From the NCBI GenBank assembly GCA_020056715.1, contig JAGVHG010000040.1, forward strand, positions 75,920 through 139,919: 64,000 nt of DNA, in the 5' to 3' direction. This DNA comes from Phycisphaerae bacterium (lineage in GTDB: Bacteria > Planctomycetota > Phycisphaerae > UBA1845). The notes under the pieces were generated by a model that was given only the letters and a program-made list of their open reading frames with translations, had not been told where the DNA came from and ran no database searches. A program made the translations under genes and the position numbers. The number at the start of each line of letters is the position of its first letter. Within the stretch, counting starts at the first letter, position 1. This document shows positions 21,920 through 60,972 of the stretch, piece by piece.

Positions 21920-22030
21920 ATGCCCCTCCCAAAGATGGTCGCCGGACGCTCGGCCGTGGCGATCGAAAAGAACGAAGGCCCATTGTACTGTAGCCCGCCC
22001 TGCCGGCACAATCCCAAAACCACCTGGCCA

Positions 22031-22046
22031 AACGCCGAAACGCCGA
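22031..22046. repeat. tandem octamer AACGCCGA x2
   Basis: Same unit as at 14817-14840. Located between the transglutaminase-like and RCC1 genes. Confidence 0.55.
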
Positions 22047-22122
22047 AATAAAGCTGGTCGTGTCACTCCCGCTCCACGCTCTTATTGGCCCCGCGCTGGC
22101 TTGGGGTTCGGATCGGCGCGCG

Positions 22123-38176: not shown

Positions 38177-39376
38177 ATGCCCAGTTTTAGTTACAAGGCG
38201 GTTAGCAACGCTGGAAAACACGTCGCGGGTGTGTTGACGGCGGAGAACTACCTCGTCGCCCTGCGCATGCTGGATGAACAAGCACTCTACCCCATCCACG
38301 TGGCCGAAGGGGTGGAGGCGGGCGGGCTGTCGTTCGGTCGTCGGCGAAGGGTTAAGTCGTCGCACCTGACTACCTTTTATAGCCAACTGGCCGATCTGTT
38401 GAAGGCCGGCGTGCCCATGATGCGGGCATTGGATGTGCTGTCCGGCCAGGGTTCGCAGGGCGCTATGGCGATGATGGTCAAGGAGTTGCGCGAGGACGTG
38501 GCCGGTGGTATGTCGCTGGGCGACGCCATGGCGAAACATCCCCGCGTCTTCTCGCCGTTGCACTCCTCCATGACCCGTGCGGGCGAGCAGGGCGGCTTCC
38601 TCGAAGACGTGTTGCACCGCATCGCCATCTTCTGCGAAAAGCAGGATGAGCTACGCAACAAGGTAGTGGGGGCGATGATCTACCCCGCGATCCTGGTCCT
38701 AGCGGGGAGCGGCGTGGTGTTGTTGCTGCTCACGGTGGTGGTGCCCAAGCTCCGGGAGCATCTGCGGCCGGAGACTTTCAACGTTCTGACGAAGGCGGTG
38801 TTTGGGCTTTGCGATCTGCTACGCGACCACTGGATGGCCTTGCTTATGCTCGCGTTCGCGATTCTCTTCGGGTTAACGACGTGGGTGAAGACGGCGGCCG
38901 GTCGTCGAGTATACGAGCGTTTCAAGCTCCGTGCCCCGGTGATGGGCAAGATCGTGACCATGGTCGCCATCTGCCGGTTCTGTCGGATTCTCGGAACGAT
39001 GCTGCACAACGGCGTGCCGATCCTCCAAGCCTTGAAGATTTCCAAGGACTCCGCCGGCAACAGCATTCTCGCCAAGGCGATAGAGGAGGCGGCGGACAGC
39101 GTGAAGAAAGGGGCGGCCCTCTCGGCGCCGCTGCGGGAGTCGGGGCTTTTCCCGCTGACCGTTCTGGACATGATCGCGGTGGCGGAGGAGAGCAATAATC
39201 TAGAGACGGTGCTGGTGCAGATTGCGGATACGAACGAGGCCCGGACGGCACGAGCGATCGACCTGGGCGTGCGGGTCCTCGAACCGGTGTTGTTGGTGAT
39301 GATGGCCATGGTGGTGTTTTGCATCGCGGTGGCGTTGCTGCTGCCCATCTTGACGATGGGATCCGCGGTGAGATGA
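38177..39376 (+). CDS. gspF: type II secretion / type IV pilus platform protein F
   Basis: FSYKAVSNAGK N-terminus and duplicated T2SSF repeats with 3 TM segments. ATG 38177 is preferred. Confidence 0.9.
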   Translation: MPSFSYKAVSNAGKHVAGVLTAENYLVALRMLDEQALYPIHVAEGVEAGGLSFGRRRRVKSSHLTTFYSQLADLLKAGVPMMRALDVLSGQGSQGAMAMMVKELREDVAGGMSLGDAMAKHPRVFSPLHSSMTRAGEQGGFLEDVLHRIAIFCEKQDELRNKVVGAMIYPAILVLAGSGVVLLLLTVVVPKLREHLRPETFNVLTKAVFGLCDLLRDHWMALLMLAFAILFGLTTWVKTAAGRRVYERFKLRAPVMGKIVTMVAICRFCRILGTMLHNGVPILQALKISKDSAGNSILAKAIEEAADSVKKGAALSAPLRESGLFPLTVLDMIAVAEESNNLETVLVQIADTNEARTARAIDLGVRVLEPVLLVMMAMVVFCIAVALLLPILTMGSAVR

Positions 39377-39382
39377 GATCAG

Positions 39383-39417
39383 GCTATAGGTTGTAGGCTG
39401 TAGGCATTAGGCAATAC
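39383..39417. repeat. heptamer array GCTATAG GTTGTAG GCTGTAG GCATTAG GCAATAC
   Basis: Period-7 repeat in the gspF-gspG spacer. Same unit family as 16753-16787. Confidence 0.65.
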
Positions 39418-39434
39418 TTGAGAGGAACAGTTCT

Positions 39435-39899
39435 ATGCGAAGAAAAGTGTATCGAAGGCGATCGGCGTTTACGTTGATCGAGGTGTTGCTGGTGGCGGGC
39501 ATCCTGGCGGTGCTGGCGGCCTTTATTGTCCCGAACCTGTTCGGACAGGCAACCAAGGCGAAGATCGACATCGCCAAGGCGGCGGTGCTGCGCAACGGCT
39601 CTATTGCCAAGGCGTTGGATATGTACAAGTTCGACATGGTCAAATTCCCTGAAACGAACGAGGGGCTGGCGGCCCTTTTCCAGCCCAAGGAAAAAAAGAA
39701 GGACGAAGAGCGCTACAACGGGCCGTACATGGAAGGGGTCTTCGAGCAACTCAAGGATCCGTGGGGCAACCCCTATGAGTATCGCTCCCCCGGGGAGATC
39801 AACGAGGACTTCTACGACCTGTGGAGCCGAGGCCCGGATGGCAAGGACGACGGCGGCAAGGAAGGAAGCGACGACATCGTGAACTGGGTTAGGAAGTAG
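39435..39899 (+). CDS. gspG: type II secretion major pseudopilin G
   Basis: RRSAFTLIEVLLVAGILAVLAAFIVPN prepilin motif. GspG core present (DMYKFDMVKFP..EGL.AL, DPWGNPYEYRSPGE, DLWSRGPDGKD). Confidence 0.9.
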   Translation: MRRKVYRRRSAFTLIEVLLVAGILAVLAAFIVPNLFGQATKAKIDIAKAAVLRNGSIAKALDMYKFDMVKFPETNEGLAALFQPKEKKKDEERYNGPYMEGVFEQLKDPWGNPYEYRSPGEINEDFYDLWSRGPDGKDDGGKEGSDDIVNWVRK

Positions 39900-39911
39900 G
39901 AGTATGACGTG

Positions 39912-40011
39912 GATTGTCAATTGCCAATTGCCGATTGCCAATTAAAAAACGCAAGTCCACGCGCGTTCCTATTTGGCAATTGGCCCGCCTTCGGCGGGGC
40001 AATTGGCAATG
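39912..40011. repeat. inverted heptamer arrays (GATTGTC AATTGCC AATTGCC GATTGCC AATTAAA ... GGCAATT..GGCAATT GGCAATG) around GC hairpins
   Basis: The left array (39912-39946) and reverse-complement units (39975-39981, 39998-40011) flank the CCCGCC-TTCG-GGCGGG hairpin (about 39984-39998). The element fills the gspG-gspH gap. Confidence 0.7.
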
Positions 40012-40013
40012 AC

Positions 40014-40775
40014 ATGCCGCAAAAGTCGCCCGCCTTCACGCTCTTGGAAGTGACGTTGGCGATCGGGCTGCTGGTCGTCATCAGCGCCATCGCCATCCCC
40101 AATTTTGTTGGTCAAATCGAGCGCGAGGAATTGCCGGGTTCGGGGCGACAGCTTCGCTCGTTGCTGGCCCTGGCCCGGGCGAACGCCTCGTTCGAGGGGA
40201 AGCGCTATCGGATCCGTTTTCCCAAGGAGAAGGAGAAGGAGAAAGACGCACTGGGGGGCGATCAGCAACCGCTGATCGAGCGTGAGGATGATCCCATTCG
40301 CAACCCGGAGGTGTTCCACGAAGTGACGGCCCCCTGGGCCTTCGGAAAAACGCTGTTGGGGAAGGTGTGGTGCGTGGAGGTACGGCTGGGGCGGCCTACC
40401 ATCGAGGACCTTCGCGTGCGGCGCGAGAAGATTACGGAGGTCTCGGACGAACTGCTTCGCTCTCCGGAGAATTTTGAACCGGAATACCCACCATTGTACA
40501 TCGAGCCGGACGGCAGCTCCGAGTGGGCGACGTTTACACTGACCAACGCGCCGCGGGGCACGAAAATCGACGAATTGGAAGACCACCCGCGTATCGACCT
40601 GATTGTGGAAGGGACGACGGGTTTGGCATGGATGCAGCGTCCGTTCTACGACGAGGAGTTGGACCTGTTCGAGGAGAAGGGTTGGCCGGCGGTGCTGCGC
40701 CAGGACTTCCTCGATCCGCGGGTGCTGACTGAAAACGACGTTCTCGAACTGCGTGAGATTACGATCCGGCCATGA
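40014..40775 (+). CDS. minor pseudopilin (GspH-like)
   Basis: SPAFTLLEVTLAIGLLVVISAIAIPNF prepilin motif. ATG 40014 is preferred, because the ORF-track extension runs through the repeat element. Confidence 0.6.
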   Translation: MPQKSPAFTLLEVTLAIGLLVVISAIAIPNFVGQIEREELPGSGRQLRSLLALARANASFEGKRYRIRFPKEKEKEKDALGGDQQPLIEREDDPIRNPEVFHEVTAPWAFGKTLLGKVWCVEVRLGRPTIEDLRVRREKITEVSDELLRSPENFEPEYPPLYIEPDGSSEWATFTLTNAPRGTKIDELEDHPRIDLIVEGTTGLAWMQRPFYDEELDLFEEKGWPAVLRQDFLDPRVLTENDVLELREITIRP

Positions 40776-41479
40776 AAGCGAGTCGACGCGGATATGTTCT
40801 TCTCGAGACCGTCATCGCCACGGGCCTACTGATCGTGGGGCTGGCGGTGCTCGGAGGGCAGATTCAGGACTCGGACACGGCGATTCGGAATATGCGTCTA
40901 CGTCTTCGGGCCATGACGCTCGCTGAGCAGCAGCTCGCCGAGTTGGATCTCGGGTTGGTCGAGCTGGACTCGGTAGACGAGGTGCAGGAAGGTGACTTCG
41001 GGCCTCGCTATCCGGACTTCGGCTGGCGATTGATCACTGAGCCTACGGCGATCGAGGGTTTGTACCGCTTCACCGTGGAAGTTCTTTACCTTGTGCGCAT
41101 GGACGCCTACCAAGAGGATGATTTCGACTACCAGGCGGCGGATACGCTTTTCACCACTTATGCCTTTCGCCCCGCGCCGCAGTCGCTCGATCTGGGTACG
41201 GACTTCGGACTGAAAGACGACCAACTTGAGAAAGTCAGTCAAAAGCTCAGCGATGCCGGCGTTCCCGGCTTGACCGCGCAATCCTTCGATCCCGCGATCC
41301 TTGCCAAATTGGACTTCGAGCAGATGGTCCAAGTTCTTCCGGTGATCCTCGACGCGCTTGGAATGGAACTCGGCGATCTGAAGGCGTTGATCCCGCCAGA
41401 AGTCCTGGAGGAGCTTAAGAAGAGCGGCATCCTCGACGAATTGGACGGGGCCAAAAAGCCCGAGGGGGAGGGCGGTTGA
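40772..41479 (+). CDS. minor pseudopilin (GspI-like)
   Basis: RRGYVLLETVIATGLLIVGLAVL prepilin motif. ATGA overlap with the upstream gene. Confidence 0.55.
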   Translation: MKASRRGYVLLETVIATGLLIVGLAVLGGQIQDSDTAIRNMRLRLRAMTLAEQQLAELDLGLVELDSVDEVQEGDFGPRYPDFGWRLITEPTAIEGLYRFTVEVLYLVRMDAYQEDDFDYQAADTLFTTYAFRPAPQSLDLGTDFGLKDDQLEKVSQKLSDAGVPGLTAQSFDPAILAKLDFEQMVQVLPVILDALGMELGDLKALIPPEVLEELKKSGILDELDGAKKPEGEGG

Positions 41480-41493
41480 GGAACCGAACAACG

Positions 41494-42468
41494 ATGCAAC
41501 ATCGCCCCTTTACGCAACGACGCGGCGTGACACTGCTGGAAATCCTCCTGGCTATGAGTCTCCTGGTGACGCTCACCTCGATGACCTACTGGTTCTATTC
41601 ATCGTCGATGGAGACGAATCAGAGGGGGACGATGGAAGCGGACAAGCTGCGGCTGGCGCGGGTGGTGTTGGACCGCATTACGACGGAGATTCGACAGGCA
41701 AGCTCCACTACGGCCGAGGACCGGATGGGCATCCGCGGCGAAAAGGAGAGCATCGCCATCTCCACGCTTCGCGTCCCCACCAAGGAGCTGTCCAAGAAGC
41801 ATTCGTCGCGAACCGCTCCGCCGCCGGCGGAGTTCGACCTGGTCGCAGTGCAATACAAGATCGCCCGTCACCCGGACATCCTGCATGACGACGGGTACGA
41901 AATGCCGCTTGGACTAGCACGAGTCGAGGTGCTGATCCCGCGAGCGGTGGCTCCTGGAGAAGCCGATACGGGTCAGACTGAGCAGCCCGCCGAGGGATCA
42001 ACGGACGGCGCGGCGCCGCCGGAAAAGGTGTTGTTGGATGAACTTTTCTCGGAGGAAGGAACCGGTGACAAGGATGTGTCATTGGGACCGGACATTAACT
42101 GGGAGGAGCTTTATGCCCCCGAAATACGGTTTCTTCGATTCTGCTACTACGACGGCTACAAGTGGTGGGACGACTGGCAGGTCGCGGGAGAGAACCCGCT
42201 GCCGCAACTCGTGCAGATCACCATCGGGTTCGAGTCGCATCCGCCGTGCGGCGAGGAGTTCGGGCAGGACAAGCTCAACGAGGAGTTTTGTGAGTGCCTG
42301 AACAAAGATCCGGTGGATTGTGAGCCGCTGCCCAAGGACCAGTATTCAACCGTCGTGCGCGTCACCGGGGCCGATCCGCTCTTTCGTTCCCGCGTCAGCC
42401 GCGAGAGTCAATCGGTGATCGACCAGATGGCGACAACTAAGGCCGAAGACAAAGGCGAGGAGCCGTAG
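41494..42468 (+). CDS. minor pseudopilin (GspJ-like)
   Basis: RRGVTLLEILLAMSLLVTLTSM prepilin motif. ATG 41494 or TTG 41476. Confidence 0.55.
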   Translation: MQHRPFTQRRGVTLLEILLAMSLLVTLTSMTYWFYSSSMETNQRGTMEADKLRLARVVLDRITTEIRQASSTTAEDRMGIRGEKESIAISTLRVPTKELSKKHSSRTAPPPAEFDLVAVQYKIARHPDILHDDGYEMPLGLARVEVLIPRAVAPGEADTGQTEQPAEGSTDGAAPPEKVLLDELFSEEGTGDKDVSLGPDINWEELYAPEIRFLRFCYYDGYKWWDDWQVAGENPLPQLVQITIGFESHPPCGEEFGQDKLNEEFCECLNKDPVDCEPLPKDQYSTVVRVTGADPLFRSRVSRESQSVIDQMATTKAEDKGEEP

Positions 42469-44406
42469 ATGGCTAGGCGCGCTCGTGCGGTCATCCTGCC
42501 GGTGGTCTTGTTTGTGCTCCTACTGTTGGGGCTGCTGGGGGCGATGTTCTCGTTTCGTATTCATGCGGACGTGTCCGCGACGCGAGTAATGGGTGACCGG
42601 CTGCAAACGCGCCTCGCGGCCGAGGCGGGCGTCGAGGCCGTGAAGTTGTTGCTTCGGACCGCCCGCTTCGATCGCACCCAGTGGTACAATAACCCCGTTG
42701 CATTCCACCGTATCTTGGTCTGGGCCTACGGGGCGGACCGTTCCACGGCCGGGACCAACGAAGAGTTCAAGGACACCAAGGCCTTTCGATTCAGCATTGT
42801 GGCCGACGATCCTACCGATGATGAGCGCTACATTCGCTTTGGCATCACTGACGAGGCATCCAAGCTCAACCTGAACACCGCCACCGATAGTCAGTTGCTC
42901 AAGTTCGTCGAAACGGTCGTCGGACAAGGGGAGGATAACGATCTCAACCCGCGGGCGATCGTGGACGCAATCATTGACTGGCGCGACGCCGATTCCAAGC
43001 CGACGGGTGAGGCCGGTGACACGGAGGAGGCGTACTATCGCGCGCTCGACAAACCGTATCGCGTCAAGAACGGGCCGTTTTCCACCGTCGAAGAGTTGCT
43101 GTTGGTCAAAGGCATTACCGGACAGGTGCTCTTCGGCGAGGACTTCGATCGCAACGGTCTGCTGACTCCCAATGAAGACGACGGCGACAAGTCATTCCCG
43201 CCGGACAACCAGGATGGGATCCTCAACCGCGGGCTTTTCCCCTATCTGACGGTCATGTCGTACGACAACAACACCAGCAACGACAACCGCCCACGGGTCT
43301 TCCTGTTCAGCGACGAGGCCACGCTCAAGAAAGAACTAGAACCGGTCTTTCCGGATGAACCAGACATCGTCAACTTCATCGTAGCCGTGACCAGGACCGG
43401 ACCCGGCGTCCCGGGGCCGGGAGGAAAACCGCCTGGGCCCCAGCAGCCGAAGCAGCCGAAAACTGGTACCGGAGTTACGCCCGGTCCACAGGAACCGGGC
43501 GCGAACCCGCCCGTCCAGCCGCCACCCGGAACTCCCGGCGGAGGCAAGGGCGGCAAGAAACCCCCGACCGCACCAGTTCCCTCCGGCGGTCCTACACCGC
43601 CGAAGATTCCCCCACCCGTTGGTAAGCAAACGAATAGTATGAAGCAGAAGAACCTGGGCAGCCCTCCCAGTCCTGGAAATCCGCGCGGTTCCGTAGTGGA
43701 CGAGGGCAAGGGCGGCAAGCCGCAGCCACCGGGCCGGACCGACCCGGTACCAAGCGATCCTACGCCGGCAGCGCCTACGACGCCAGTCGGCAGCGAAGTG
43801 GTACCAGGTGGGGAGGAAGGCGGCGAAGGAGGAGAAAAACCGACCGGGGGTGCGGAAAGCGGTGATGGTGGAACCGCGGCCACGCCGATTCGATCACCAG
43901 CGTCGCTGCTTCGCCCGCGCAAGGTTGGAACGGCACAGGAGGAGCCGAGTCCGCTGACGGTCGATCGCCTGCCGTTATTGATGGACCAGTTGTCGACTCG
44001 GCGGCCGGCGGAGCGGCGTATTCCGGGCCTTATCAATGTTAATACGGCCCCTCGGCAGGTGTTGGAATGCCTCGGAGAACTGAATGGGGAGCAGATTCAA
44101 AGCATCCTCGCACTTCGAGAGACGCTGGATGCGGAGACGTTGTCGACGCCGGCGTGGCTGGTGACGGCAGGGGCGGTCGACGTAGAGACGTTCGACAAGA
44201 TCGCCACGAATCTTACCTCGCGGGGTCAACAATTTTCTATTGAATCTTTGGGCTACGGAGATCATATTGGTATGGTCACGCGGCTGCAGGTGGTGGTGGA
44301 TATGGTGGGACCTATCGCACAAACGATCTATTACCGCGACCTGAGCTATCTGGGCGGCAGCTACCCGATCCGCGAAGAAGATAAGGAGCAGGTCCGTGGC
44401 CGGTAG
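42469..44406 (+). CDS. gspK: GspK-like pseudopilus tip protein with ~170-aa Pro/Gly-rich insertion
   Basis: Hydrophobic N-terminus without Glu5. Motifs ITDEASKLNLNTA, IIDWRDAD, PFSTVEELLLVKGIT and INVNTAPRQVL (HhH). Insertion at about 43396-43900. Confidence 0.7.
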   Translation: MARRARAVILPVVLFVLLLLGLLGAMFSFRIHADVSATRVMGDRLQTRLAAEAGVEAVKLLLRTARFDRTQWYNNPVAFHRILVWAYGADRSTAGTNEEFKDTKAFRFSIVADDPTDDERYIRFGITDEASKLNLNTATDSQLLKFVETVVGQGEDNDLNPRAIVDAIIDWRDADSKPTGEAGDTEEAYYRALDKPYRVKNGPFSTVEELLLVKGITGQVLFGEDFDRNGLLTPNEDDGDKSFPPDNQDGILNRGLFPYLTVMSYDNNTSNDNRPRVFLFSDEATLKKELEPVFPDEPDIVNFIVAVTRTGPGVPGPGGKPPGPQQPKQPKTGTGVTPGPQEPGANPPVQPPPGTPGGGKGGKKPPTAPVPSGGPTPPKIPPPVGKQTNSMKQKNLGSPPSPGNPRGSVVDEGKGGKPQPPGRTDPVPSDPTPAAPTTPVGSEVVPGGEEGGEGGEKPTGGAESGDGGTAATPIRSPASLLRPRKVGTAQEEPSPLTVDRLPLLMDQLSTRRPAERRIPGLINVNTAPRQVLECLGELNGEQIQSILALRETLDAETLSTPAWLVTAGAVDVETFDKIATNLTSRGQQFSIESLGYGDHIGMVTRLQVVVDMVGPIAQTIYYRDLSYLGGSYPIREEDKEQVRGR

Positions 44407-46006
44407 ACCGCCGCCGAAAAAGATCGTGGCCGTCGACTGGGACACGCGTACGCTGCGGATCGTCCATGCCCTGCTCGGCAAACGCGGGGTGAAAATCGAC
44501 CGTTTGCTTTCGGCGCCGATTCCTACGGACCTTGATCTTGCGAACCCTGAACTATTGGGGCGACACATCCGGCGAGTGCTGGACCAGGAAGGGATCCAAA
44601 CCAAGCACGCGACCGTCGACATCCCCCGCGATCAAGCCATTCTCAAGACGCTGTCGCTTCCGGCGCTTTCACCGGACGAGTTGGCGGGGATGGTGGGAAT
44701 CCAGATTGCCAAGGAGCTGCCGTTTCCGGCGAGCGAAGCAGTGATCGACTTTGCGGTTCCGCCGTTCGCGGCTTCGGCAACGACATCGGAAGTGTTGGTG
44801 GCCGCGGTGCGCCGCGAGGTCGTGCAACAATACGAAACCACGTTCGAGGTGGCGGGTCTGAAACTGGACCGTGTGGGGCTTCGCCCCTATGCGAACACGG
44901 TGGCGGTTTGCGAATTGCTTAAACATGCCTTGCCGGAACGGGTGATGTTCATCGACGTGCGGCCTTCGCTGACGGAAATCGATGTCATCCACAACGGATC
45001 GTTGACCTTCTCGCGGGCGGCGTCGGTGATGGTCTCTCAGGAGGCGCGGGGTCACGGCGAGCGGCCGCGCTTTTCGATCGTGCGCGAGAGCGGCACGAGC
45101 GAGGCGCACGTGCCGATGGACTTGGACGCCGAAACGCCGCACCACCTCGGTGACACCGAGGCCATGATTCATTCGTTGGTGGTGGAGGTGACGCGTTCGA
45201 TCGAGGCCTATCGGGCCAACGACGCCGGGGCAACCATCGACCACGTGGTCATCGCGGGCGACCTCGGGGTGGAGGAGACGCTGGCGGAAGCGATTCAGAA
45301 ACGACTCGGTATCACGACGGAACTGTACAACCCGGCGGCATCGTTCGGTTGGGAACCGGACGAAGGGGCGGGAGCATCGGCGTTCGCTTCCACGTTGGGG
45401 CTAGTGGTGGGGCACTCCTACGACCGGGCGCTACACTTCGATTTTTTACACCCCAAAAAACGCGTCTCGCAGACTCAGGAGCGGTTGAAAAAGGCGCCGC
45501 TGGTGGCGGCGGTGGCGGTGTTGTTCGTCGCGGCGGGAGGAATTGCCTTCGCCAAGTTCACCGCACCCGCCCGGAAGACCTTAGCGAGGATCGAGAGTTC
45601 GATCCAAGAGCTGGAGGACAAACGCGCCGACCACAAGAAATTCTTGGAGGTGATGGAACGAATCCGCGATTTCGACGCAGAGCAACATGTTTGGGTCGAC
45701 GTGCTGTACGACGTTCTCTACGTTCTCCCGACCAACGAGGAACTGGTGATCAACAATATAGAAATGAACCAGTCGGAGGGCCGGTTGGTGCTCAAGACCA
45801 AGACCAAGAACCGCGACACGGCTACGACCGCGGTGCGAAAGCTCGACGAGTTCCGACGAGAGGGGAAAGACCGCCCGCGGTTCAAGACGAGCATCGGCCC
45901 GCAGACGGAAAAAAAGGGCGAGAAATATGCGTATGTGCAGGACTTGCGGATTGCCCTGCTTCGGGATGACGCGGTGAAGAAGGGATCGGCGAAGTCCAAA
46001 AACTGA
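44396..46006 (+). CDS. PilM-PilN fusion (GspL-like cytoplasmic actin-like domain + TM + periplasmic domain)
   Basis: N-terminal domain of about 360 aa with PilM-like layout (IVAVDWDTRTLRIV.., IAGDLG). TM helix LVAAVAVLFVAAGGIAFA at about 45490-45560, followed by a PilN-like coiled-coil and alpha/beta domain. GTG start overlaps gspK by 11 nt. Confidence 0.6.
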   Translation: MAGRPPPKKIVAVDWDTRTLRIVHALLGKRGVKIDRLLSAPIPTDLDLANPELLGRHIRRVLDQEGIQTKHATVDIPRDQAILKTLSLPALSPDELAGMVGIQIAKELPFPASEAVIDFAVPPFAASATTSEVLVAAVRREVVQQYETTFEVAGLKLDRVGLRPYANTVAVCELLKHALPERVMFIDVRPSLTEIDVIHNGSLTFSRAASVMVSQEARGHGERPRFSIVRESGTSEAHVPMDLDAETPHHLGDTEAMIHSLVVEVTRSIEAYRANDAGATIDHVVIAGDLGVEETLAEAIQKRLGITTELYNPAASFGWEPDEGAGASAFASTLGLVVGHSYDRALHFDFLHPKKRVSQTQERLKKAPLVAAVAVLFVAAGGIAFAKFTAPARKTLARIESSIQELEDKRADHKKFLEVMERIRDFDAEQHVWVDVLYDVLYVLPTNEELVINNIEMNQSEGRLVLKTKTKNRDTATTAVRKLDEFRREGKDRPRFKTSIGPQTEKKGEKYAYVQDLRIALLRDDAVKKGSAKSKN

Positions 46007-46010
46007 AACC

Positions 46011-46028
46011 CACTGCTGACCAGCAGTG
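46011..46028. repeat. intercistronic hairpin CACTGCT-GACC-AGCAGTG
   Basis: Lies 13 nt upstream of ATG 46041. Near-identical to 13628-13648. Confidence 0.55.
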
Positions 46029-46040
46029 ACAGACGAAGTT

Positions 46041-47582: not shown

Positions 47583-47621
47583 CCGGGCCGAGATGGCGAG
47601 CCAAGCAGAAGGAACCTAAAA

Positions 47622-55712: not shown

Positions 55713-55713
55713 G

Positions 55714-55770
55714 TCAGAGCGCCGGGCACAAGCCCGGTGACCGTGTTTGTCCGCAGGCTTGCGCCTGCGG
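55714..55770. repeat. two-hairpin intergenic element, copy B (TCAGAGC + CCGGGC-ACAA-GCCCGG + CCGCAGGC-TTGC-GCCTGCGG)
   Basis: Starts 2 nt after the giant gene stop. It aligns with 11972-12028 and carries paired (compensatory) stem substitutions. Confidence 0.7.
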
Positions 55771-55822
55771 CTCGGCGGGGCGGACTGTGTGGAAGGACCG
55801 GGCCATGGATGGGTTCCGGTGA

Positions 55823-58800
55823 GTGGAGGCAATGGTGATGAGGATGAACGGACAAACGAGGACGGGATGCGTCGGCCGGTGGCGATGGATATTCGCCGTG
55901 GGCGTCTTCGCGGCGAGTTTGTTGTTGGTGGACGGCTCGGCGAGAGGTCAGGCCGAGCGCAGTTCCGAACAAGCGCAAACGCAACAGCCGCCGAGCCCGC
56001 CGGCCCCACAACGCAAGGGTGCAGTGCAGCCGTCGCAACCTGCGCAACGCCCACAGCAACCACGCGGACAAAAACCGCCGGCACAGCCCGATCGGATCAG
56101 CGAGCTGGTGCGCGGACTCGACCCCGCGGTCTTGGCGCAGCTCGCCGGGGCGGAGGTGACGGCCGAGGTGGTCGGCGACCAAGTGATTTTGCAAGGCCCG
56201 GAGGAAGCGGTGAAGGCGATCGAACTGCTCATCCGAGCGCTGGAGGTCGAAAGCGAGTCGAAAGCGAAAGTCCTGCAGGTGGTCCAAGTCACGGAGCGTG
56301 ACGCCGTGGAGATCGCTCGGACCGTCCAACAGGCGGTGCGCGATGCGTTGGGATTCGCAGCGCAAAAACAGGAGGATAAGATCTCCGTCACCGCACTGTC
56401 ATCGAACATTCTATTGATAGCGGCGTCGCCGAAAGAAATCGACCAGGTGATCGACATCATCGAGCAGGTCGACGCGATTCCCGATCCGTTGGGCAAGGTG
56501 GAGTTGATGCGCTTCGACGTCGTGCATCGCAAGGCGGGCGACGTGGCCAAGGAATTGGAGAAGATCATCACCCAACTTCGCGTCGCCGCTGGGCAGAAAA
56601 AGGACCAGGGGAAGCTGCAAATCATTCCCAACAACTCCAACAACACCATTACCGTCACCGCCCGCGAAACCGAGCGCGAGAAGATCCAGGCCCTTATCGA
56701 GAATATCGACGTGGAGCCGAAAAAGGGCTGGGGCGAAATTCGCCTGACCATCTTCCCGTTGCTTCATTCCAAAGCGAGCGATCTCCAGAAAGTCATCCAG
56801 GATTTGATCAAATCGGAGGCCAAGGCGGACAAGGACGCCGTACAGGAGATGATCCAGCGCCTGCGCATAAGCAAGGCCGACGCGACCGGCAAGATGACCG
56901 ACCTTGCACCGATCGATCTTCAGCGCCAATTGCGGATCATCTCTGACACGGGCACGAACAGCTTGATCGTGGCGACGATCGAGGAGAACGTCGAGCCTAT
57001 GGGCGAGTTGATCCGCCTGCTCGACGGCGTGCCGCTCGCGGAGGAGTTCGCGGTCAAGCTGTTTCCCCTTCGCTTCGCCGACGCGGAGACGGTCAACAAA
57101 GTGCTCAAGGAGATGTTCGATTCCGGCAAGAAGCTGCCTGAGGACCCCAACGGCGGCGGAAAGGGCGGCGTCCCCACGGGTTCCGAGGGGCACGCCCTGG
57201 TATACAACGTAGGTCTGGCCACGGACTTGCGCACCAACACGTTGATCGTCTCCGGTCGCCCCGAGCAGTTGGGGCTGGTGGAGACGGTCGTCGGTGAACT
57301 GGACCGCCCCGCGACGGCCCTGAAGTTCCCCTTGCGGCTGATTCCCTTGGAGTACAACGACGCGACCGGGTTTGGGAAGATGGTGACGGAGTTGTTCGAC
57401 CAACGGATGAAGACGGTCGAGGCTACGAACGCGGGCAAGTCCGCCGCGGAACGCGAGCGCATCTTTCTCAGCGTGGACCTCCGCACCAACTCCTTGATCG
57501 TTTCGGCCTCGGAGGAGAACTTCAACGAGATTGTCGCCATCGCCCGGCAGTTGGATACGAAGCCGGCGAAGCTGTTCGACCAAATCCGAATCGTGCCGCT
57601 AGCCAGACTCACCGCCAAGGACATGAAGACCAAGATCGAGGACTTGTGGAAGCGCAAGGCCGATCTGCGCAAGGAGGGCAAGCTGCTCGAGGATCTGCCC
57701 ATCGTGGCCTTCGATGAACGCAGCAACTCGCTCGTGGTCGCCTCCAACCGCGAGGACTTCGACGAAATCCTGCGACTGGTGACTCTGCTCGAGGCCCAGC
57801 CGCTGATCGAAGATATCCGGCTGTTCAAGTTGGAGTTTGCCGACGCGGCCGTCCTTTCGGGGATGTTGGACGAGTTGTTCAAGGGTCTCGCTGGTCAATC
57901 GGAATCCTTCAAGGCGCCCACGATCATTCCCGACTCGCGAAGCAACGCGTTGGTCGTGGCGGGCGCCCGCGACGCGACGGAGCGCGTGGCCGAGGTGGTT
58001 CAACGGCTGGACGTGGAGGCCGGACCGCTCACCGCGGTTTTCAAGGTGTATCCCCTGAAGAACGGCTCGGCCAATCAGCTTGCCCAGCGGATGCAAAAGC
58101 TGTTTGACTCCCGTAAGGAGGGCGAAAAGACCGACCGGACGCCGGTGGTGATTCTGTCGGAGGAGTCGTCCAATAGCCTGGTGGTCAGCGCCTCGCGCGA
58201 CGATCATGACGTGATCGACGGCCTAATCGATCTGCTGGACAAACCGTCGAGTCTTGCCCAGCAATTCGAGATCTTCCCGCTGAAGATGTCCAAGGCCAAG
58301 ACGGTGGCGGAAAAGCTGGACAGCCTCTTCAAAGCACAGGGCGAGGGAACGACGGGTCGGGCGGATGCCATCGCCACGCAGGCCGACGAGCGGACCAACT
58401 CGATCATCGTGTGGGCGTCGCCCTCGCAAATGGCCAACATCGGCGAGGTCATCGCCAAGCTCGACACCTCCACGCCGGCCGTGGAGATGATGATTAAGGT
58501 TATCCAACTCAAGCAGGCGCTAGCGACGGATTTCGCCAAACTGCTCGAGGAGACGCTGATTGGCGACAAGTCCGGCGGCGATGAGGAGCGTGCGGTCATC
58601 GTGTCGTTTCTGGAAAAAAACCCGAACGGCAAGGAAATCCTACGCAAGTTGTTGCGCCAGGACATCCGCATCAAGCCCGACCCTCGGACCAACTCCGTGA
58701 TGGTCATGGCCCCGGCGGACAGTATGTCGATGCTGGAGGCGATGATACTTGACTTCGACCGCATCCGCCCGGTGACCTCCGAAATCCGCCTGTTTCCGCT

Positions 58801-60379
58801 CATTAACAGTGACGCGAAGACCATGGTGGAACAGCTCACGGAACTGTTTAAGGCCGAAGGAGGGACTAAAGAGGGCGAGGCGAAAAGCCAACTGGTGTTC
58901 GGCGCCGCGGCCGAGGGATTGGACCTTGCGAGCGTCGGCCAAGAGCTGCGCTTCGCCGCCGATACCCGCACCAACACGCTCATTGCGGCGGGAGCACAAG
59001 TATACCTGCGGATGGTCGAGGACCTGGTGCGCTATCTGGATTCGCAGGAGGCCGAGGAGCGGGTGAACGAGGTGTACCAAGCCAAGTTCCGCCCCGCTTC
59101 CGACCTCGCCACCGCAGTCCAGGGGTTCATCAAGCAGGAGGTTGACGTGATCGGCGAGGCCGCGGACACGGAGGCGAAGACGAGGAAACAAGAACGACAA
59201 GTGTCCGTCGAAAGCGTAGGAAAGGAAGAGAAGGGGAGCAGCAGTTTGCTGGTGGGGACTAGTCGCCGCGCGTATCAGCGGACGATGGACATGATCCAGT
59301 CCCTCGATCGACCCGAACCGCAGGTCATGATCTCCGTACTGATCGCCGAAGTGTCGCTGACCGGCGGCGTAGACTTGGGGATCGAGTTCGCCGGACAAGA
59401 CCTGACCTTCTCCAAGAAGGCCGTGGTCGGCCCCAACGGCATCGTGCAAGGCAGCGACTTCGACTTCGTCGGCGGCACGGACCTCGGGGCCGCCGGTCTG
59501 GGTTTGGGGGGGTTCAACTTCACTATCACCGGCGAGGACTTCAGTTTCCTCTTGCGGGCCTTGCAACAAGACAGCCGGCTCGAGGTGCTGTCGCGCCCGG
59601 TCCTCATGGTTCGCAACGGCGAAGAGGGCAAGATCACCATCGCCGACAAGGTGCCCATTGTGGCGTCCACGAACCTCAATCCGACCGGTCAAACACAATC
59701 GACCATCGGTCGGGAGGACGTGGGCATCATCCTGACCGCAACGCCGCACATCAGCCCGGACGGTTACGTCACCATTAAGATGAAGCAGGAGATATCGAGC
59801 ATCGGCGCCAACGTCCAACTGACCGAGGGGGTCGCTTCGCCGATTTTCTCCACCCGCGAGGTGGAGACCAATGTGACCATCCGCGACGGGGAGACGGTGG
59901 TGATCGGCGGGCTGATCCAGTCGAGCGATGGACAAACTGAGAACAAGGTCCCCATTCTGGGGGACATTCCGTGGCTTGGCGTGTTGTTCCGCACCACTTC
60001 AGCCACCACCCGCAGGACGGAGCTTATGGTGGTTCTAACCGTCGACATCCTACGCACCGACGAGGACGTGAAGCAGATGTCGGTGGAGCAGCGCGACAAG
60101 TTCTTGCTCCCCGACACCATCCGGCAAAGTCCGTTGATGGAAGGTCTGCGGATCACGCCGCAGGAACAGGCCCTTGGACCGAAGGAGGACCGCGCGTCCG
60201 CCAAGGTGCCCCCGCCCGGTCCGGCGATCGAACCGCGACGCGAGGATCGCGATCTCTATGGACCGCGTCCCAAGACCTATGGGCCGGTGATCACTCGCCC
60301 GACCTCGACGAGCACGACGCAGGGCCCGGTTTACGGCCCCAACATCGCCCGCAACAAGGATTCGGTCGCCCACCCATGA
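55823..60379 (+). CDS. gspD: secretin (GspD/PilQ family) with 12 N-type modules plus a leading half-module
   Basis: Signal peptide. 12 Secretin_N-like modules. C-terminal secretin domain at about 59315-60053 (VLIAEVSL.., LEVLSRPVLMVRNGEEGKITI, PILGDIPWLGVLFR, ELMVVLT). ATGs at 55832/55838/55844 are more likely starts than GTG 55823. Confidence 0.9.
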   Translation: MEAMVMRMNGQTRTGCVGRWRWIFAVGVFAASLLLVDGSARGQAERSSEQAQTQQPPSPPAPQRKGAVQPSQPAQRPQQPRGQKPPAQPDRISELVRGLDPAVLAQLAGAEVTAEVVGDQVILQGPEEAVKAIELLIRALEVESESKAKVLQVVQVTERDAVEIARTVQQAVRDALGFAAQKQEDKISVTALSSNILLIAASPKEIDQVIDIIEQVDAIPDPLGKVELMRFDVVHRKAGDVAKELEKIITQLRVAAGQKKDQGKLQIIPNNSNNTITVTARETEREKIQALIENIDVEPKKGWGEIRLTIFPLLHSKASDLQKVIQDLIKSEAKADKDAVQEMIQRLRISKADATGKMTDLAPIDLQRQLRIISDTGTNSLIVATIEENVEPMGELIRLLDGVPLAEEFAVKLFPLRFADAETVNKVLKEMFDSGKKLPEDPNGGGKGGVPTGSEGHALVYNVGLATDLRTNTLIVSGRPEQLGLVETVVGELDRPATALKFPLRLIPLEYNDATGFGKMVTELFDQRMKTVEATNAGKSAAERERIFLSVDLRTNSLIVSASEENFNEIVAIARQLDTKPAKLFDQIRIVPLARLTAKDMKTKIEDLWKRKADLRKEGKLLEDLPIVAFDERSNSLVVASNREDFDEILRLVTLLEAQPLIEDIRLFKLEFADAAVLSGMLDELFKGLAGQSESFKAPTIIPDSRSNALVVAGARDATERVAEVVQRLDVEAGPLTAVFKVYPLKNGSANQLAQRMQKLFDSRKEGEKTDRTPVVILSEESSNSLVVSASRDDHDVIDGLIDLLDKPSSLAQQFEIFPLKMSKAKTVAEKLDSLFKAQGEGTTGRADAIATQADERTNSIIVWASPSQMANIGEVIAKLDTSTPAVEMMIKVIQLKQALATDFAKLLEETLIGDKSGGDEERAVIVSFLEKNPNGKEILRKLLRQDIRIKPDPRTNSVMVMAPADSMSMLEAMILDFDRIRPVTSEIRLFPLINSDAKTMVEQLTELFKAEGGTKEGEAKSQLVFGAAAEGLDLASVGQELRFAADTRTNTLIAAGAQVYLRMVEDLVRYLDSQEAEERVNEVYQAKFRPASDLATAVQGFIKQEVDVIGEAADTEAKTRKQERQVSVESVGKEEKGSSSLLVGTSRRAYQRTMDMIQSLDRPEPQVMISVLIAEVSLTGGVDLGIEFAGQDLTFSKKAVVGPNGIVQGSDFDFVGGTDLGAAGLGLGGFNFTITGEDFSFLLRALQQDSRLEVLSRPVLMVRNGEEGKITIADKVPIVASTNLNPTGQTQSTIGREDVGIILTATPHISPDGYVTIKMKQEISSIGANVQLTEGVASPIFSTREVETNVTIRDGETVVIGGLIQSSDGQTENKVPILGDIPWLGVLFRTTSATTRRTELMVVLTVDILRTDEDVKQMSVEQRDKFLLPDTIRQSPLMEGLRITPQEQALGPKEDRASAKVPPPGPAIEPRREDRDLYGPRPKTYGPVITRPTSTSTTQGPVYGPNIARNKDSVAHP

Positions 60380-60930
60380 CCACCGTCCAGGCGATGATAC
60401 GGCGAAGGTTTCGGTCGGTGGCGACATGCTTGGGCGTGTTCGCCTTGGTCACCGGCGGATGCCGTTCTTTGGGTAGGACGGACGCAAGCTCACCGCCGTC
60501 GTCGTCGCGCCCCATCCGCTCGGGCGACATTCACGGCGTGGTTTGTCTGTTCGATCAAAAGCCGTGGATCAGCGTCGATGCCGCGGGAGATCCCGATCCG
60601 GAGGGCATCCGCTATCGTGTCTTTCTCGACCCCGGCAAAGGTAAATGCGTTCTACGTGAAGGTTCGTTTCGTATTGAGATGTATCTGATCGATCGCACGG
60701 ACTCCGGCGATACTGAGCGTACGCTGGTGAGCGATTGGAATTATCCGACGAGCGAGCTTGGAACCGTTCTTTCCAAGATTCTCGGCAAAGGCTATCACCT
60801 TCAACTGCGCTGGGCGAAGAAAGACACCGCCGGGCACGAGATCGAAGTGGTCACGCAGTTCATCGATCGATACGGCAACACCACGCGGTCGCCGACCAAG
60901 CGACTCCGCGTGCCGAAGTATTCGTCCTGA
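60376..60930 (+). CDS. lipoprotein, candidate pilotin/secretin accessory
   Basis: Lipobox-like LVTGGC after a basic/hydrophobic signal. Its ATG overlaps the secretin TGA (ATGA). The longer ORF-track version is an artefactual extension. Confidence 0.45.
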   Translation: MTTVQAMIRRRFRSVATCLGVFALVTGGCRSLGRTDASSPPSSSRPIRSGDIHGVVCLFDQKPWISVDAAGDPDPEGIRYRVFLDPGKGKCVLREGSFRIEMYLIDRTDSGDTERTLVSDWNYPTSELGTVLSKILGKGYHLQLRWAKKDTAGHEIEVVTQFIDRYGNTTRSPTKRLRVPKYSS

Positions 60931-60940
60931 AAGCGTGTAC

Positions 60941-60972
60941 AAAAACTCCTCTCCCCCTTATGGGGAGAGGGG
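60941..60972 (-). terminator. intrinsic terminator for the isc operon (hairpin CCTCTCCCC-loop-GGGGAGAGG + T-run on minus strand)
   Basis: 9-11 bp GC stem at 60946-60972 followed, on the minus strand, by TTTTT (complement of 60941-60945). It lies 16 nt after the iscX stop, between convergent genes. Confidence 0.6.

What the first reader, a model, noticed from the sequence alone, without database searches (positions are those of the whole stretch)
38177..60930. 22.8-kb tightly coupled T2SS/T4P-hybrid operon with no ATPase or prepilin peptidase
Eleven co-oriented genes run gspF, gspG, H-, I- and J-like pseudopilins, gspK, PilM-PilN fusion, PilO-Ig-PilP/GspC-like fusion, giant N-repeat protein, secretin, lipoprotein. 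Junctions are tight: ATGA overlaps at 40772 and 60376, abutting stop/start at 42468/42469, and an 11-nt overlap at 44396. The fibre genes are T2SS-type (G,H,I,J,K), whereas the assembly platform is T4P-type (PilM/N/O/P). No GspE/PilB-type ATPase or PilD-type peptidase lies anywhere between cmk (37983) and iscX (60988). This gene set does not match the canonical T2SS or T4aP operon layouts I know.
Basis: partly seen in the sequence, partly recalled or inferred. Interest (0 to 1): 0.75.

Follow-up and report, generated by a model that had tools for sequence, protein, structure and literature searches.

The report
Type II secretion operon, giant split secretin
This is a type II secretion-like gene cluster conserved in Phycisphaerae (Planctomycetota) whose outer-membrane channel protein is about six times the usual length and split into two proteins, and whose "missing" motor ATPase is most likely encoded elsewhere in the genome.

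Summary
Eleven co-oriented, tightly packed genes fill 38177-60930, and no GspE/PilB ATPase or prepilin peptidase lies in the window.

The "ATPase-less T2SS/T4P hybrid" reading is only partly right:
- GspF, G, K and D score as T2SS proteins.
- The "PilM-PilN fusion" has the same membrane topology as GspL.
- The 518-aa protein combines a PilO/GspM-like domain, a PKD domain and a GspC-HR-like domain.
- A sister Phycisphaerae clade has gspE directly upstream of gspF.
- A complete genome of the window's clade carries the gspE orthologue (70% identity) alone, about 300 kb from its operon.

The real novelty is the secretin. The 2,696-aa "N-repeat protein" is the N-terminal part of a split GspD: signal peptide, N0 domain and at least 22 Secretin_N domains. 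The 1,518-aa secretin supplies 12 more plus the pore. Other Phycisphaerae encode the same thing as one 3,500-4,700-aa secretin with 30-52 N-domains.

The split falls inside an N-domain. The giant ends with a conserved β1-α1 half. The secretin starts with the complementary β2-β3-α2 half. I infer that the halves dock to build a very long periplasmic conduit.

I found no description of this in the literature. Verdict: new variant of a known kind.

The parts
38177..39376 (+). gspF, the polytopic inner-membrane platform protein (ORF opens at GTG 38147; ATG 38177 matches the 399-aa orthologues)
   Evidence: Pfam T2SSF 3.2e-56 with 2 stretches. TIGR02120 GspF 2e-100, but 337 bits is below the 424 cutoff. 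88% identical orthologue in L001.
39435..39899 (+). gspG, the major pseudopilin (prepilin motif RRSA^FTLIEV)
   Evidence: T2SSG 4.8e-27 and N_methyl 6e-6. TIGR01710 scores 118.4 bits, above the 88.85 cutoff.
39908..40013 (+). Structured spacer between gspG and the H-like gene, built of CAATTGCC/GGCAATTG repeats
   Evidence: RNA fold -52.7 kcal/mol, z = -5.05, 0 of 200 shuffles as good. Five repeat copies. Conserved in L001 and L007. Function not tested.
40014..40775 (+). GspH-like minor pseudopilin (KSPA^FTLLEV)
   Evidence: Prepilin-type N-terminus. Weak N-terminal matches to XpsH/GspH/Verru_Chthon cassette D, E 1e-3 to 8e-3. Position after gspG. Orthologues in about 35 loci.
40772..41479 (+). 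GspI-like minor pseudopilin (SRRG^YVLLET)
   Evidence: Prepilin-type N-terminus. XpsI 1.1e-4. ATGA overlap with the preceding gene.
41494..42468 (+). GspJ-like minor pseudopilin (QRRG^VTLLEI)
   Evidence: N_methyl 2.3e-3. TIGR01711 GspJ 1.1e-4. Faint or weak T2SSJ hits on orthologues in L003, L004 and L006.
42469..44406 (+). gspK, a minor pseudopilin without Glu5, carrying a ~190-aa Pro/Gly-rich insert
   Evidence: T2SSK_1st 1.1e-12, T2SSK 7.8e-4. NF037980 GspK 8e-25, 88 bits, below the 130 cutoff. Sequence.
44396..46006 (+). GspL-equivalent: PilM-type actin-like cytoplasmic domain (res 13-330), a PilN-like 'HFDFLHPKK' linker, TM (368-390), then a coiled coil and periplasmic domain
   Evidence: PilM_2 2.1e-29. 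TIGR01175 pilM 2e-36; Amuc_1101 family 4.5e-19. PDB PilM and the PilM-PilN chimera 5eou 4e-21; no GspL hit at E<=1. TM and topology.
46026..47582 (+). GspM/GspC-equivalent fusion: TM (11-32), coiled coil plus PilO/GspM-like domain (to ~185), PKD/Ig domain (229-308), Pro-rich linker, GspC-HR/PilP-like beta domain (341-403; nt 47046-47234), disordered tail
   Evidence: AF2 mean pLDDT 80. Foldseek hit to M. xanthus PilO 3jc8_Oa, E 1.3e-5. Profile versus PDB: PKD hits and PilO at E 0.41. C-terminal domain model pLDDT 91; its best specific hits are LspC 7oio (prob 0.97) and ETEC GspC HR 3oss_C (prob 0.95, TMt 0.64), but with E 0.09-0.27.
47622..55712 (+). N-terminal piece of a split giant secretin (2,696 aa): signal peptide; ~200-aa Pro/Gln-rich linker; N0 domain (res 243-345, nt 48348-48656); at least 22 Secretin_N domains (res 413-2642); terminal half domain beta1-alpha1 (res 2647-2672, nt 55560-55637); basic Ser/Gly/Arg/Pro tail
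   Evidence: Secretin_N 1.8e-177 with no Secretin domain. Domain map. N0: the family profile hits only secretin N0 domains in the PDB (PilQ 4ar0 E 0.003; GspD 5mp2, 4e9j and others) and the first domain of the fused giant secretins. Half domain. Family of 74 clusters without PF00263.
55823..60379 (+). C-terminal piece of the split secretin (1,518 aa; start probably ATG 55838): own signal peptide, Pro/Gln linker, complementary half domain beta2-beta3-alpha2 (res ~108-143, nt 56144-56251), 12 Secretin_N domains, Secretin pore domain (res 1246-1411, nt 59558-60055)
   Evidence: Secretin_N 8.9e-111, Secretin 4.1e-47. TIGR02517 GspD 551 bits against a 351 cutoff. Domain map. Half domain. Collinear, at ~30% identity, with the C-terminal 1,100-1,300 residues of the fused secretins.
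60376..60930 (+). Conserved lipoprotein (lipobox VTGG|C) translationally coupled to the secretin; candidate pilotin or accessory protein
   Evidence: Gly28-Cys29 are invariant in five orthologues, including the fused-secretin clade. ATGA overlap. No Pfam, NCBIfam or PDB match. The role is inferred from position only.

Best explanation
The locus is the Phycisphaerae version of a type II secretion system (a type IV filament-superfamily machine), transcribed as one unit.

Shown here:
- It encodes GspF, the major pseudopilin GspG and four minor pseudopilins (H-, I- and J-like, plus K).
- It encodes a GspL-equivalent made of a PilM-type domain fused to a TM segment and a PilN-like part.
- It encodes a GspM/GspC-equivalent (PilO-like, PKD, HR-like domains).
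- It encodes a secretin and a coupled lipoprotein.
- The secretin is gigantic and divided between two genes. The 2,696-aa product carries the N0 domain and at least 22 ring-building N-domains. The 1,518-aa product carries 12 more N-domains and the outer-membrane pore.
- Each product has its own signal peptide.
- The break lies inside one N-domain. Its beta1-alpha1 half ends the first protein and its beta2-beta3-alpha2 half begins the second.

Inferred:
- After separate export, the two halves reconstitute one N-domain. This joins the two oligomeric stacks head to tail into a single channel of about 35-38 rings.
- At roughly 3-4 nm per ring this would be on the order of 100 nm. That would fit the enlarged periplasm reported for planctomycetes.
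- The N0 end is held at the inner membrane by the HR-like domain of the 518-aa protein.
- The GspE ATPase and the prepilin peptidase are supplied in trans from other loci, and GspE docks on GspF and on the PilM-type domain.
- The pseudopilus, or possibly a longer fibre, grows inside the conduit to expel folded proteins.
For: Component identities.

Operon conservation: the order F-G-H-I-J-K-L-MC-giant-secretin-lipoprotein recurs in about 40 species-level Phycisphaerae genomes.

Split secretin:
- The N-only family has 74 clusters at 28-100% identity, 2,300-3,500 aa, none with PF00263.
- More distant Phycisphaerae have single secretins of 3,500-4,700 aa with PF00263 in the same operon slot.
- N-domain counts are 22+12 here, against 30-52 (median 39) in the fused forms.
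- The window secretin aligns collinearly with the C-terminal third of the fused forms.
- N0 is present only on the giant.

Half domains:
- The giant's C-terminus matches N-domain HMM positions 3-46, of which only 3 to about 28 (beta1-alpha1) is real domain sequence and the remainder lies over the low-complexity tail. The secretin's N-terminus matches positions 36-71. A concatenation scores as one whole domain at 34 bits.
- The first half, followed by a basic tail, ends 62 of 74 family members by HMM. By eye, most of the remaining 12 have it too.
- The second half begins the secretin in all five pairs examined, down to about 29% identity between the giants.
- The two genes are in different frames, and signal peptides are conserved on both.

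ATPase in trans:
- gspE lies directly upstream of gspF in L037, L038, L041, L042 and L045.
- Orthologue P0286 (70% identity) sits alone in CP070744.1 at about 982.5-984.2 kb, while that genome's operon is at about 658-691 kb.

Precedents:
- Secretin height tracks envelope thickness: D. radiodurans ~350 A against ~220 A (PMC10828601).
- A split GspD with half-N-domain proteins exists in the mitochondrial T2SS (PMC8134430).
Against: - No structure prediction of the two-protein junction could be run, so domain reconstitution is inference from sequence complementarity and conservation.
- The HR-like assignment has non-significant Foldseek E-values (0.09-0.27).
- H, I and J rest on weak matches.
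- The source genome's own gspE and prepilin peptidase were not seen. Only 64 kb is available, and look-ups of its proteins were not on record.
- A fused-secretin clade (L004) also lacks gspE next to gspF, so the history of gspE linkage is unresolved.
- Whether 35 or more N-domains really stack into a rigid tube, what is secreted, and whether the fibre stays periplasmic are all unknown.
- One window-clade genome (CP070744.1) shows a secretin ORF without a pore domain. This is either an assembly or rearrangement problem or evidence that the system can decay.
Confidence: 0.7

Rival explanations
1. The machine assembles a true surface fibre (a type IV pilus-like or planctomycetal fimbria-like filament) through the long conduit, for adhesion, uptake or motility, rather than secreting folded proteins.
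For: - The platform protein is PilM-family, not T2SSL-family.
- A PilO-like domain is present.
- PVC relatives of the L-like protein and the secretin belong to the Akkermansia Amuc_1101/Amuc_1098 'pilus complex' families.
- A fibre would have to be about 100 nm long just to traverse the predicted conduit (inference).
Against: - The major subunit passes the GspG equivalog cutoff.
- A GspK-type tip pseudopilin is present.
- The secretin passes the GspD equivalog cutoff and scores far above PilQ (551 against 258 bits).
- No PilT-type retraction ATPase lies in the operon, even in the sister clade that keeps gspE.
- NCBI names the ATPase orthologues GspE.
Confidence: 0.2
2. The 2,696-aa protein is an independent periplasmic scaffold or flexible tether. 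It might be a spacer through peptidoglycan, or a leash keeping the pore near the platform across a variable periplasm. On this reading it is not a stacked extension of the channel, and the terminal half-domains are only relics of the gene fission.
For: - It is a separate, separately exported polypeptide with long disordered segments: about 200 aa at the N-terminus, about 90 aa inside (res ~1470-1560), and a basic tail.
- No structural test of docking was possible.
Against: - Both half-domains are conserved across pairs whose giants share only about 29% identity, which argues for selection.
- Fused orthologues show the same domains as one chain with the pore.
- N0, the platform-contact domain, sits on this protein and not on the pore protein.
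Confidence: 0.2
3. One reading: a self-contained T2SS/T4P hybrid that really lacks a dedicated ATPase and peptidase and therefore works by a different principle.
For: No T2SSE or A24 peptidase gene lies in the 64-kb window or beside the operon in any window-clade locus.
Against: - The sister clade carries gspE at the head of the same operon.
- An orthologue at 70% identity is retained as a lone gene in a window-clade complete genome.
- GspF and a PilM-type domain, the usual ATPase partners, are retained.
- Prepilin peptidase genes are commonly unlinked (Denise et al. 2019 treat gspO as a 'loner').
Confidence: 0.03
4. The two secretin ORFs are a decaying or mis-assembled single gene (a frameshift or stop artefact), so the split has no biological meaning.
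For: The fused form exists in other Phycisphaerae. One genome shows a truncated secretin ORF.
Against: - The split recurs in 68 or more independent clusters from NCBI, JGI, ENA and Logan assemblies.
- The downstream piece has its own start, signal peptide and linker in all five pairs.
- A 110-nt spacer separates the genes, and they are in different frames.
- Lengths and termini are conserved.
Confidence: 0.02

Closest known systems
Canonical proteobacterial T2SS (Gsp/Pul/Eps/Xcp; GspC-M, O)
   Same: GspF, GspG, an H-I-J-K pseudopilin block in the same order, a GspD-class secretin, a bitopic actin-like-domain protein (GspL topology), a GspM-like protein, an HR-like domain, and a secretin-associated lipoprotein. 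In the sister clade gspE heads the operon.
   Different: - The secretin has about 35-38 N-domains instead of 3 plus N0, and is split in two.
- The L-equivalent scores as PilM, not T2SSL.
- The M- and C-equivalents are fused in one protein with a PKD domain.
- gspE is unlinked in this clade.
- The secretin gene lies at the 3' end of the operon.
T4aP alignment subcomplex PilM-PilN-PilO-PilP-PilQ
   Same: PilM-family domain (5eou/5eox E 4e-21), a PilN-like linker motif and TM, a PilO-like fold (3jc8_Oa), and a PilP/HR-type beta domain.
   Different: - M+N and O+P are fused pairwise.
- The major subunit is GspG-type.
- A GspK is present.
- There is no PilT and no AMIN domains.
- The secretin scores as GspD rather than PilQ.
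Long secretins of thick-envelope bacteria (Deinococcus radiodurans T2SS secretin DR_0774, ~350 A tall; Thermus PilQ with extra N-rings, the latter from my own knowledge)
   Same: Extension of the periplasmic part of a secretin to match an unusually wide envelope (PMC10828601).
   Different: Those have N0-N3 (up to about six rings in Thermus) on one polypeptide of about 750 aa. Here there are 35-50 rings, 4,200-4,700 aa in total, and in this clade two polypeptides.
Mitochondrial T2SS of some protists (GspD + GspDL + GspDN1-3; Horvathova et al. 2021, PMC8134430)
   Same: The secretin gene is split so that Secretin_N domains sit on separate polypeptides. GspDN2 and GspDN3 are the C- and N-terminal halves of a single N-domain, and GspD-GspDN1 interact in Y2H.
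   Different: It is eukaryotic and organellar, has very few N-domains, and is much reduced. No giant array and no N0-bearing piece is described.
Akkermansia/Verrucomicrobia Amuc_1098-1102 'pilus complex' cluster (NCBIfam NF045709, NF042912)
   Same: PVC-superphylum relatives: the L-like protein matches the Amuc_1101 PilM-like family (4.5e-19) and the secretin's C-terminus matches the Amuc_1098 family (1e-24). A Puniceicoccaceae locus with an L-like protein and a secretin was retrieved (L047).
   Different: Scores are far below those families' cutoffs. The secretin there is about 800-1,060 aa and unsplit. Gene content was not compared in detail.

Membership tests
Type II secretion system (T2SS) | GspD-class secretin | tested here: met
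   TIGR02517 GspD equivalog 551.5 bits against a 351.35 cutoff; Pfam Secretin 4.1e-47. The architecture is atypical (split, 12+22 N-domains).
Type II secretion system (T2SS) | GspE-family hexameric ATPase belonging to the system | tested here: inconclusive
   Absent from the window. Present at the operon head in the sister clade, and as a lone orthologue (70% identity) in the window-clade genome CP070744.1. The source genome itself was not searchable.
Type II secretion system (T2SS) | GspF platform protein | tested here: met
   Pfam T2SSF 3.2e-56. GspF is the best NCBIfam match (2e-100), although below the equivalog cutoff (337 against 424 bits).
Type II secretion system (T2SS) | GspG major pseudopilin | tested here: met
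   TIGR01710 118.4 bits against an 88.85 cutoff; Pfam T2SSG 4.8e-27.
Type II secretion system (T2SS) | Minor pseudopilins GspH, I, J, K | tested here: inconclusive
   K: T2SSK_1st 1.1e-12 (above the Pfam cutoff) and NF037980 88 bits (below the 130 cutoff). H, I and J: prepilin N-termini and gene order, with only weak HMM hits at E 1e-4 to 8e-3.
Type II secretion system (T2SS) | GspL and GspM assembly proteins (T2SSL/T2SSM families) | tested here: not met
   No T2SSL or T2SSM Pfam/NCBIfam hit. The L-position protein is PilM-family. The M-position protein is PilO-like by fold only. The topology is nevertheless the same as GspL/GspM.
Type II secretion system (T2SS) | GspC with an HR domain contacting secretin N0 | tested here: inconclusive
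   The C-terminal beta domain (pLDDT 91) has LspC and ETEC GspC-HR as its best specific PDB matches (prob 0.95-0.97), but with E 0.09-0.27. An N0 domain was identified on the giant protein. The interaction itself was not tested.
Type II secretion system (T2SS) | Prepilin peptidase GspO/PilD | not tested
   None in the window. The rest of the genome is not available. The cleavage motifs have Ala or Gly at position -1.
Type II secretion system (T2SS) | Secretes folded periplasmic proteins across the outer membrane | not testable with these tools
   Requires secretome or mutant data.
Type IVa pilus (T4aP) | PilA-type major pilin, PilB plus PilT ATPases, PilQ-type secretin with AMIN domains | tested here: not met
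   The major subunit is GspG-type. There is no PilT in the window or in the sister-clade operon. The secretin is GspD-type (551 bits against 258 for PilQ, which is below the PilQ cutoff). No AMIN hit.
Type IVa pilus (T4aP) | PilM-PilN-PilO-PilP alignment proteins | tested here: met
   PilM_2 2.1e-29 and PDB PilM 4e-21. PilO-like fold at E 1.3e-5. PilN-like and PilP/HR-like parts are supported by topology and fold only. They are present as two fusion proteins rather than four separate ones.

The most novel reading that the evidence does not exclude
Phycisphaerae build a periplasm-spanning secretin tube of about 35-50 stacked rings, on the order of 100 nm. In this clade it is assembled from two separately exported polypeptides that lock together by reconstituting one split N-domain. 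This would be the structure that lets a type IV filament machine reach the outer membrane across the enlarged planctomycetal periplasm. It might correspond to envelope-spanning structures seen by microscopy in this phylum.
Probability: 0.35. Interest if true: 0.8.

Novelty: new variant of a known kind. Interest (0 to 1): 0.62.

Why it matters
Characterised secretins have three to about six periplasmic rings. A secretin with 35-50 rings would be by far the longest known, and a natural two-piece version with a domain split across the pieces is unusual in its own right.

It gives a concrete, testable answer to how planctomycetes couple an inner-membrane secretion or pilus motor to the outer membrane across a periplasm much wider than in model bacteria.

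The split-domain junction is a defined target for structure prediction, cross-linking and cryo-ET. It also parallels the split GspD of the mitochondrial T2SS.

More practically, the work shows that 'missing ATPase' calls from a single locus can be resolved by comparing sister clades.

Tried and rejected
- Exact-sequence look-ups of the window's GspG and of P0001 (the 100%-identical giant) found no record, so the source contig could not be extended.
- The first genome scan, with the single 518-aa protein, found nothing. The second, with an alignment of the L-like protein, worked.
- Whole-chain Foldseek of the 518-aa model was swamped by Ig/PKD hits, so the C-terminal domain was modelled separately.
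- Pfam and single-sequence PDB searches of the putative N0 region gave nothing. Only a family profile recovered secretin N0 domains.
- A motif search for the secretin's 'VGDQ[IL]IL' half-domain in the fused giants did not locate a homologous junction. BLAST of the giant against the fused forms aligns in many registers. The exact point of fission or fusion, and its direction, are therefore unresolved.
- The 849-aa gene after the truncated secretin in CP070744.1 is unrelated to secretins.
- Promoter and terminator scans showed nothing above chance inside the cluster.
- The two GC hairpins in the giant-secretin spacer are not significant (z = -0.84).
- The lipoprotein has no detectable homologue in Pfam, NCBIfam or the PDB.
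- Seven literature searches found no description of planctomycetal T2SS operons or giant secretins.
- I considered and rejected pseudogene/artefact and 'ATPase-independent machine' as explanations (see rivals).

Full report
**Observation.** The interval 38147/38177-60930 holds eleven + strand ORFs. The reported junctions are exact:
- ATGA overlaps at 40772 and 60376.
- TAG|ATG abutment at 42468/42469.
- An 11-nt overlap at 44396.
- The other gaps are 14-114 nt.

Terminator-like sites inside the cluster are no more frequent than in shuffled sequence. The flanks are housekeeping genes: cmk upstream, and iscX-fdx-hscA convergent downstream. No ORF I scanned in the 64-kb window matches T2SSE or Peptidase_A24. 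No GspE/PilB-type Walker A occurs in any frame.

**Who and where.** The giant protein's relatives are all from Planctomycetota, and where they are named, from Phycisphaerae or Phycisphaerales MAGs. An alignment of the PilM-type protein retrieved about 40 species-level Phycisphaerae genomes. tblastn of the window proteins shows the same order in them, F-G-H-I-J-K-L-MC-giant, usually with cmk upstream. Gene tables for relatives at 72%, ~43% and ~37% giant identity show the full set through the secretin and the lipoprotein. This is a conserved, class-level operon. Sources annotate it only generically ('secretin N-terminal domain-containing protein', 'hypothetical').

**Components.**
- GspF: T2SSF 3e-56.
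- GspG: T2SSG 5e-27, and above the NCBIfam GspG equivalog cutoff.
- GspK: T2SSK_1st 1e-12.
- Secretin: above the GspD equivalog cutoff at 551 bits, against 258 for PilQ. These four are T2SS-type.
- The three genes between G and K have prepilin N-termini (A^FTLLE, G^YVLLE, G^VTLLE). Their matches to H, I and J models are weak, so those labels rest mainly on order.
- The 536-aa protein has a PilM-family actin-like domain (PilM_2 2e-29; PDB PilM 4e-21; no GspL hit). This is followed by a conserved 'HFDFLHPKK' segment resembling the PilN N-terminal motif (by eye), one TM segment and a periplasmic domain. It is therefore a natural PilM-PilN fusion, and that is the topology of GspL.
- The 518-aa protein models well (pLDDT 80). 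It comprises a TM segment, a coiled coil, a ferredoxin-like domain that hits M. xanthus PilO (E 1.3e-5), a PKD domain, a proline-rich linker and a small beta domain.
- That beta domain, modelled alone (pLDDT 91), has Legionella LspC and the ETEC GspC HR domain as its best specific PDB matches. The probabilities are 0.95-0.97 but the E-values are not significant.
- About 100 clusters at 50% identity share the full-length architecture of the 518-aa protein.
- The terminal 184-aa ORF is a lipoprotein with an invariant lipobox in all five orthologues. It has no detectable homologue, so 'pilotin' is a positional guess.

**The giant protein is half of the secretin.** An HMM built from its own repeats finds 22 full N-domains in the 2,696-aa protein and 12 in the 1,518-aa secretin. 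By eye there are two or three more divergent ones in residues 1309-1603 of the giant.
- The N-only family comprises 74 clusters of 2,300-3,500 aa, none with the pore domain.
- More distant Phycisphaerae have single proteins of 3,500-4,700 aa with 30-52 N-domains and the pore domain. These sit in the same slot of the same operon.
- The window's secretin aligns collinearly, at about 30% identity, with the C-terminal 1,100-1,300 residues of those proteins.
- Residues 243-345 of the giant are the most conserved part of the family. They match only the first domain of the fused proteins. As a profile, they hit nothing in the PDB except secretin N0 domains: PilQ 4ar0 at E 0.003, then GspD N0-N1 entries and LspD N0.
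- The secretin ORF has no N0.

The pair therefore equals one GspD cut in two.

**The cut runs through a domain.**
- The giant ends with 'RVTAVVPLKRTKVDEIQRLIDQLTQQ', the beta1-alpha1 half of an N-domain (HMM positions 3 to about 28). A 24-residue basic Ser/Gly/Arg/Pro tail follows.
- After its signal peptide and a Pro/Gln linker, the secretin begins with 'AEVTAEVVGDQVILQGPEEAVKAIELLIRALEV', the beta2-beta3-alpha2 half (positions 36-71).
- Joined in silico, the two halves score as one domain: 34 bits, against 13 and 23 separately.
- The first half plus a basic tail ends 62 of 74 family members by HMM. By eye, most of the remaining 12 have it too.
- The second half opens the secretin in all five pairs I could read, including a sister-clade pair whose giant is only about 29% identical.
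- The genes are in different frames, 110 nt apart, and each has a conserved signal peptide. This rules out readthrough or an assembly artefact.
- I infer non-covalent reconstitution of this domain as the docking mechanism.
- There is a precedent. In the mitochondrial T2SS, GspD is split, and GspDN2 and GspDN3 are the C- and N-terminal halves of an N-domain (PMC8134430).

**The missing ATPase.** Five loci of a sister clade (L-like protein ~41% identical) have a GspE Walker A just upstream of gspF.
- In L038/L051 this is a 556-557-aa MshEN+T2SSE protein heading a 12-gene operon that also has the split secretin.
- Searching with it found P0286 (70% identity) on the 5.67-Mb chromosome CP070744.1, a window-clade genome.
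- There it sits alone between lpxD and a thioredoxin gene at about 982.5-984.2 kb, while that genome's operon lies at about 658-691 kb.
- The absence of gspE from the operon is therefore best explained by unlinking, not by loss.
- For the window's own genome this is inference.
- Prepilin peptidase genes are commonly unlinked; Denise et al. model gspO as a 'loner'.

**Mechanism.**
- Shown: the parts list, the architecture, the conservation and the complementary termini.
- Inferred: the HR-like domain holds the N0 end at the inner membrane. The giant and the secretin oligomerise and join through the split domain into one channel of about 35-38 rings. GspE acts in trans. GspG polymerises inside the channel.
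- If the rings stack like N1-N3 of GspD, the tube would be on the order of 100 nm. For scale, the whole complex is ~220 A tall for four N-domains plus the pore, and ~350 A in D. radiodurans.
- That length would match the enlarged planctomycetal periplasm (my own knowledge).
- Such a length also raises the possibility that the fibre is long, or even exposed on the surface. This is why 'pilus rather than secretion' stays a live rival.

**Novelty.** Seven literature searches found no description of planctomycetal T2SS operons, of secretins with tens of N-domains, or of bacterial split secretins. The library does not cover subscription journals. I class the locus as a new variant of a known kind. 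The kind of machine is clearly T2SS/type IV filament. The secretin architecture and its two-piece form are the new elements.

**Verdict.** The 'no ATPase' puzzle is largely explained by unlinking of gspE. The interesting feature is the giant split secretin. Interest 0.62.

Noticed in passing
window 39908-40013: The spacer between gspG and the H-like gene is a nested hairpin built from five CAATTGCC/GGCAATTG repeats (-52.7 kcal/mol, z = -5.05). It is conserved in the close relatives L001 and L007. It could attenuate transcription or stabilise the gspG message, setting the ratio of major to minor pseudopilin. ORF finders and gene callers read through it as the first ~35 codons of the H-like gene, probably wrongly.
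   Followed up: partly
window 39456, 40023; loci L001-L051: The residue before the prepilin cleavage site is Ala in GspG and the H-like protein (RRSA^FTLIE, KSPA^FTLLE). It alternates among Gly, Ala and occasionally Ser across orthologues, which suggests a peptidase tolerant of Ala at position -1.
   Followed up: partly
L003 19302-24388 (= CP070744.1, also L044): In this 'complete' MAG chromosome the ORF after the giant is only 766-815 aa. It has N-domains but no pore domain, and is followed by an unrelated DUF4349 gene. This could be a rearrangement, decay or a mis-assembly; the pore-encoding part was not located.
   Followed up: partly
L037, L038/L051, L041, L042, L045: A sister Phycisphaerae clade keeps gspE directly upstream of gspF, in a 12-gene operon that also has the split secretin. 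The fused-secretin clade (L004/L046) lacks it, so gspE linkage changed more than once or was regained.
   Followed up: partly
window 1620-2108 (+) and 2191-3876 (-): A stand-alone prepilin-type gene (GKRA^FSLVE; N_methyl 3e-6) lies next to an FHA-GAF-HisKA-HATPase sensor kinase, 36 kb from the operon.
   Followed up: no
window 42469-44406 (residues ~300-480): The GspK-like protein carries a ~190-residue Pro/Gly/Thr-rich low-complexity insert between its two T2SSK-matching parts. Similar Pro/Gln-rich linkers follow the signal peptides of both secretin pieces.
   Followed up: no
window 20597-22066 (-): An RCC1-repeat protein with an IPTL-CTERM sorting signal. Next to it lie a transglutaminase-core protein (22123-23676) and a Kelch-repeat protein (16902-18914).
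   Followed up: no
L047 9716-16616 (Puniceicoccaceae, Verrucomicrobiota): A cluster with a 564-aa L-like protein (23% identity), two ~330-aa ORFs and a 1,061-aa secretin, with a GspE-type Walker A nearby. Together with the NCBIfam Amuc_1101/Amuc_1098 hits, this hints that PilM-fusion platforms are a PVC-wide trait.
   Followed up: no
window 55713-55822 and ~60946-60972: Two GC-rich stem-loops lie in the giant-secretin spacer, but they are not better than shuffles (z = -0.84). A CCTCTCCCC...GGGGAGAGG hairpin lies between the convergent lipoprotein and iscX genes and is probably a bidirectional terminator.
   Followed up: partly
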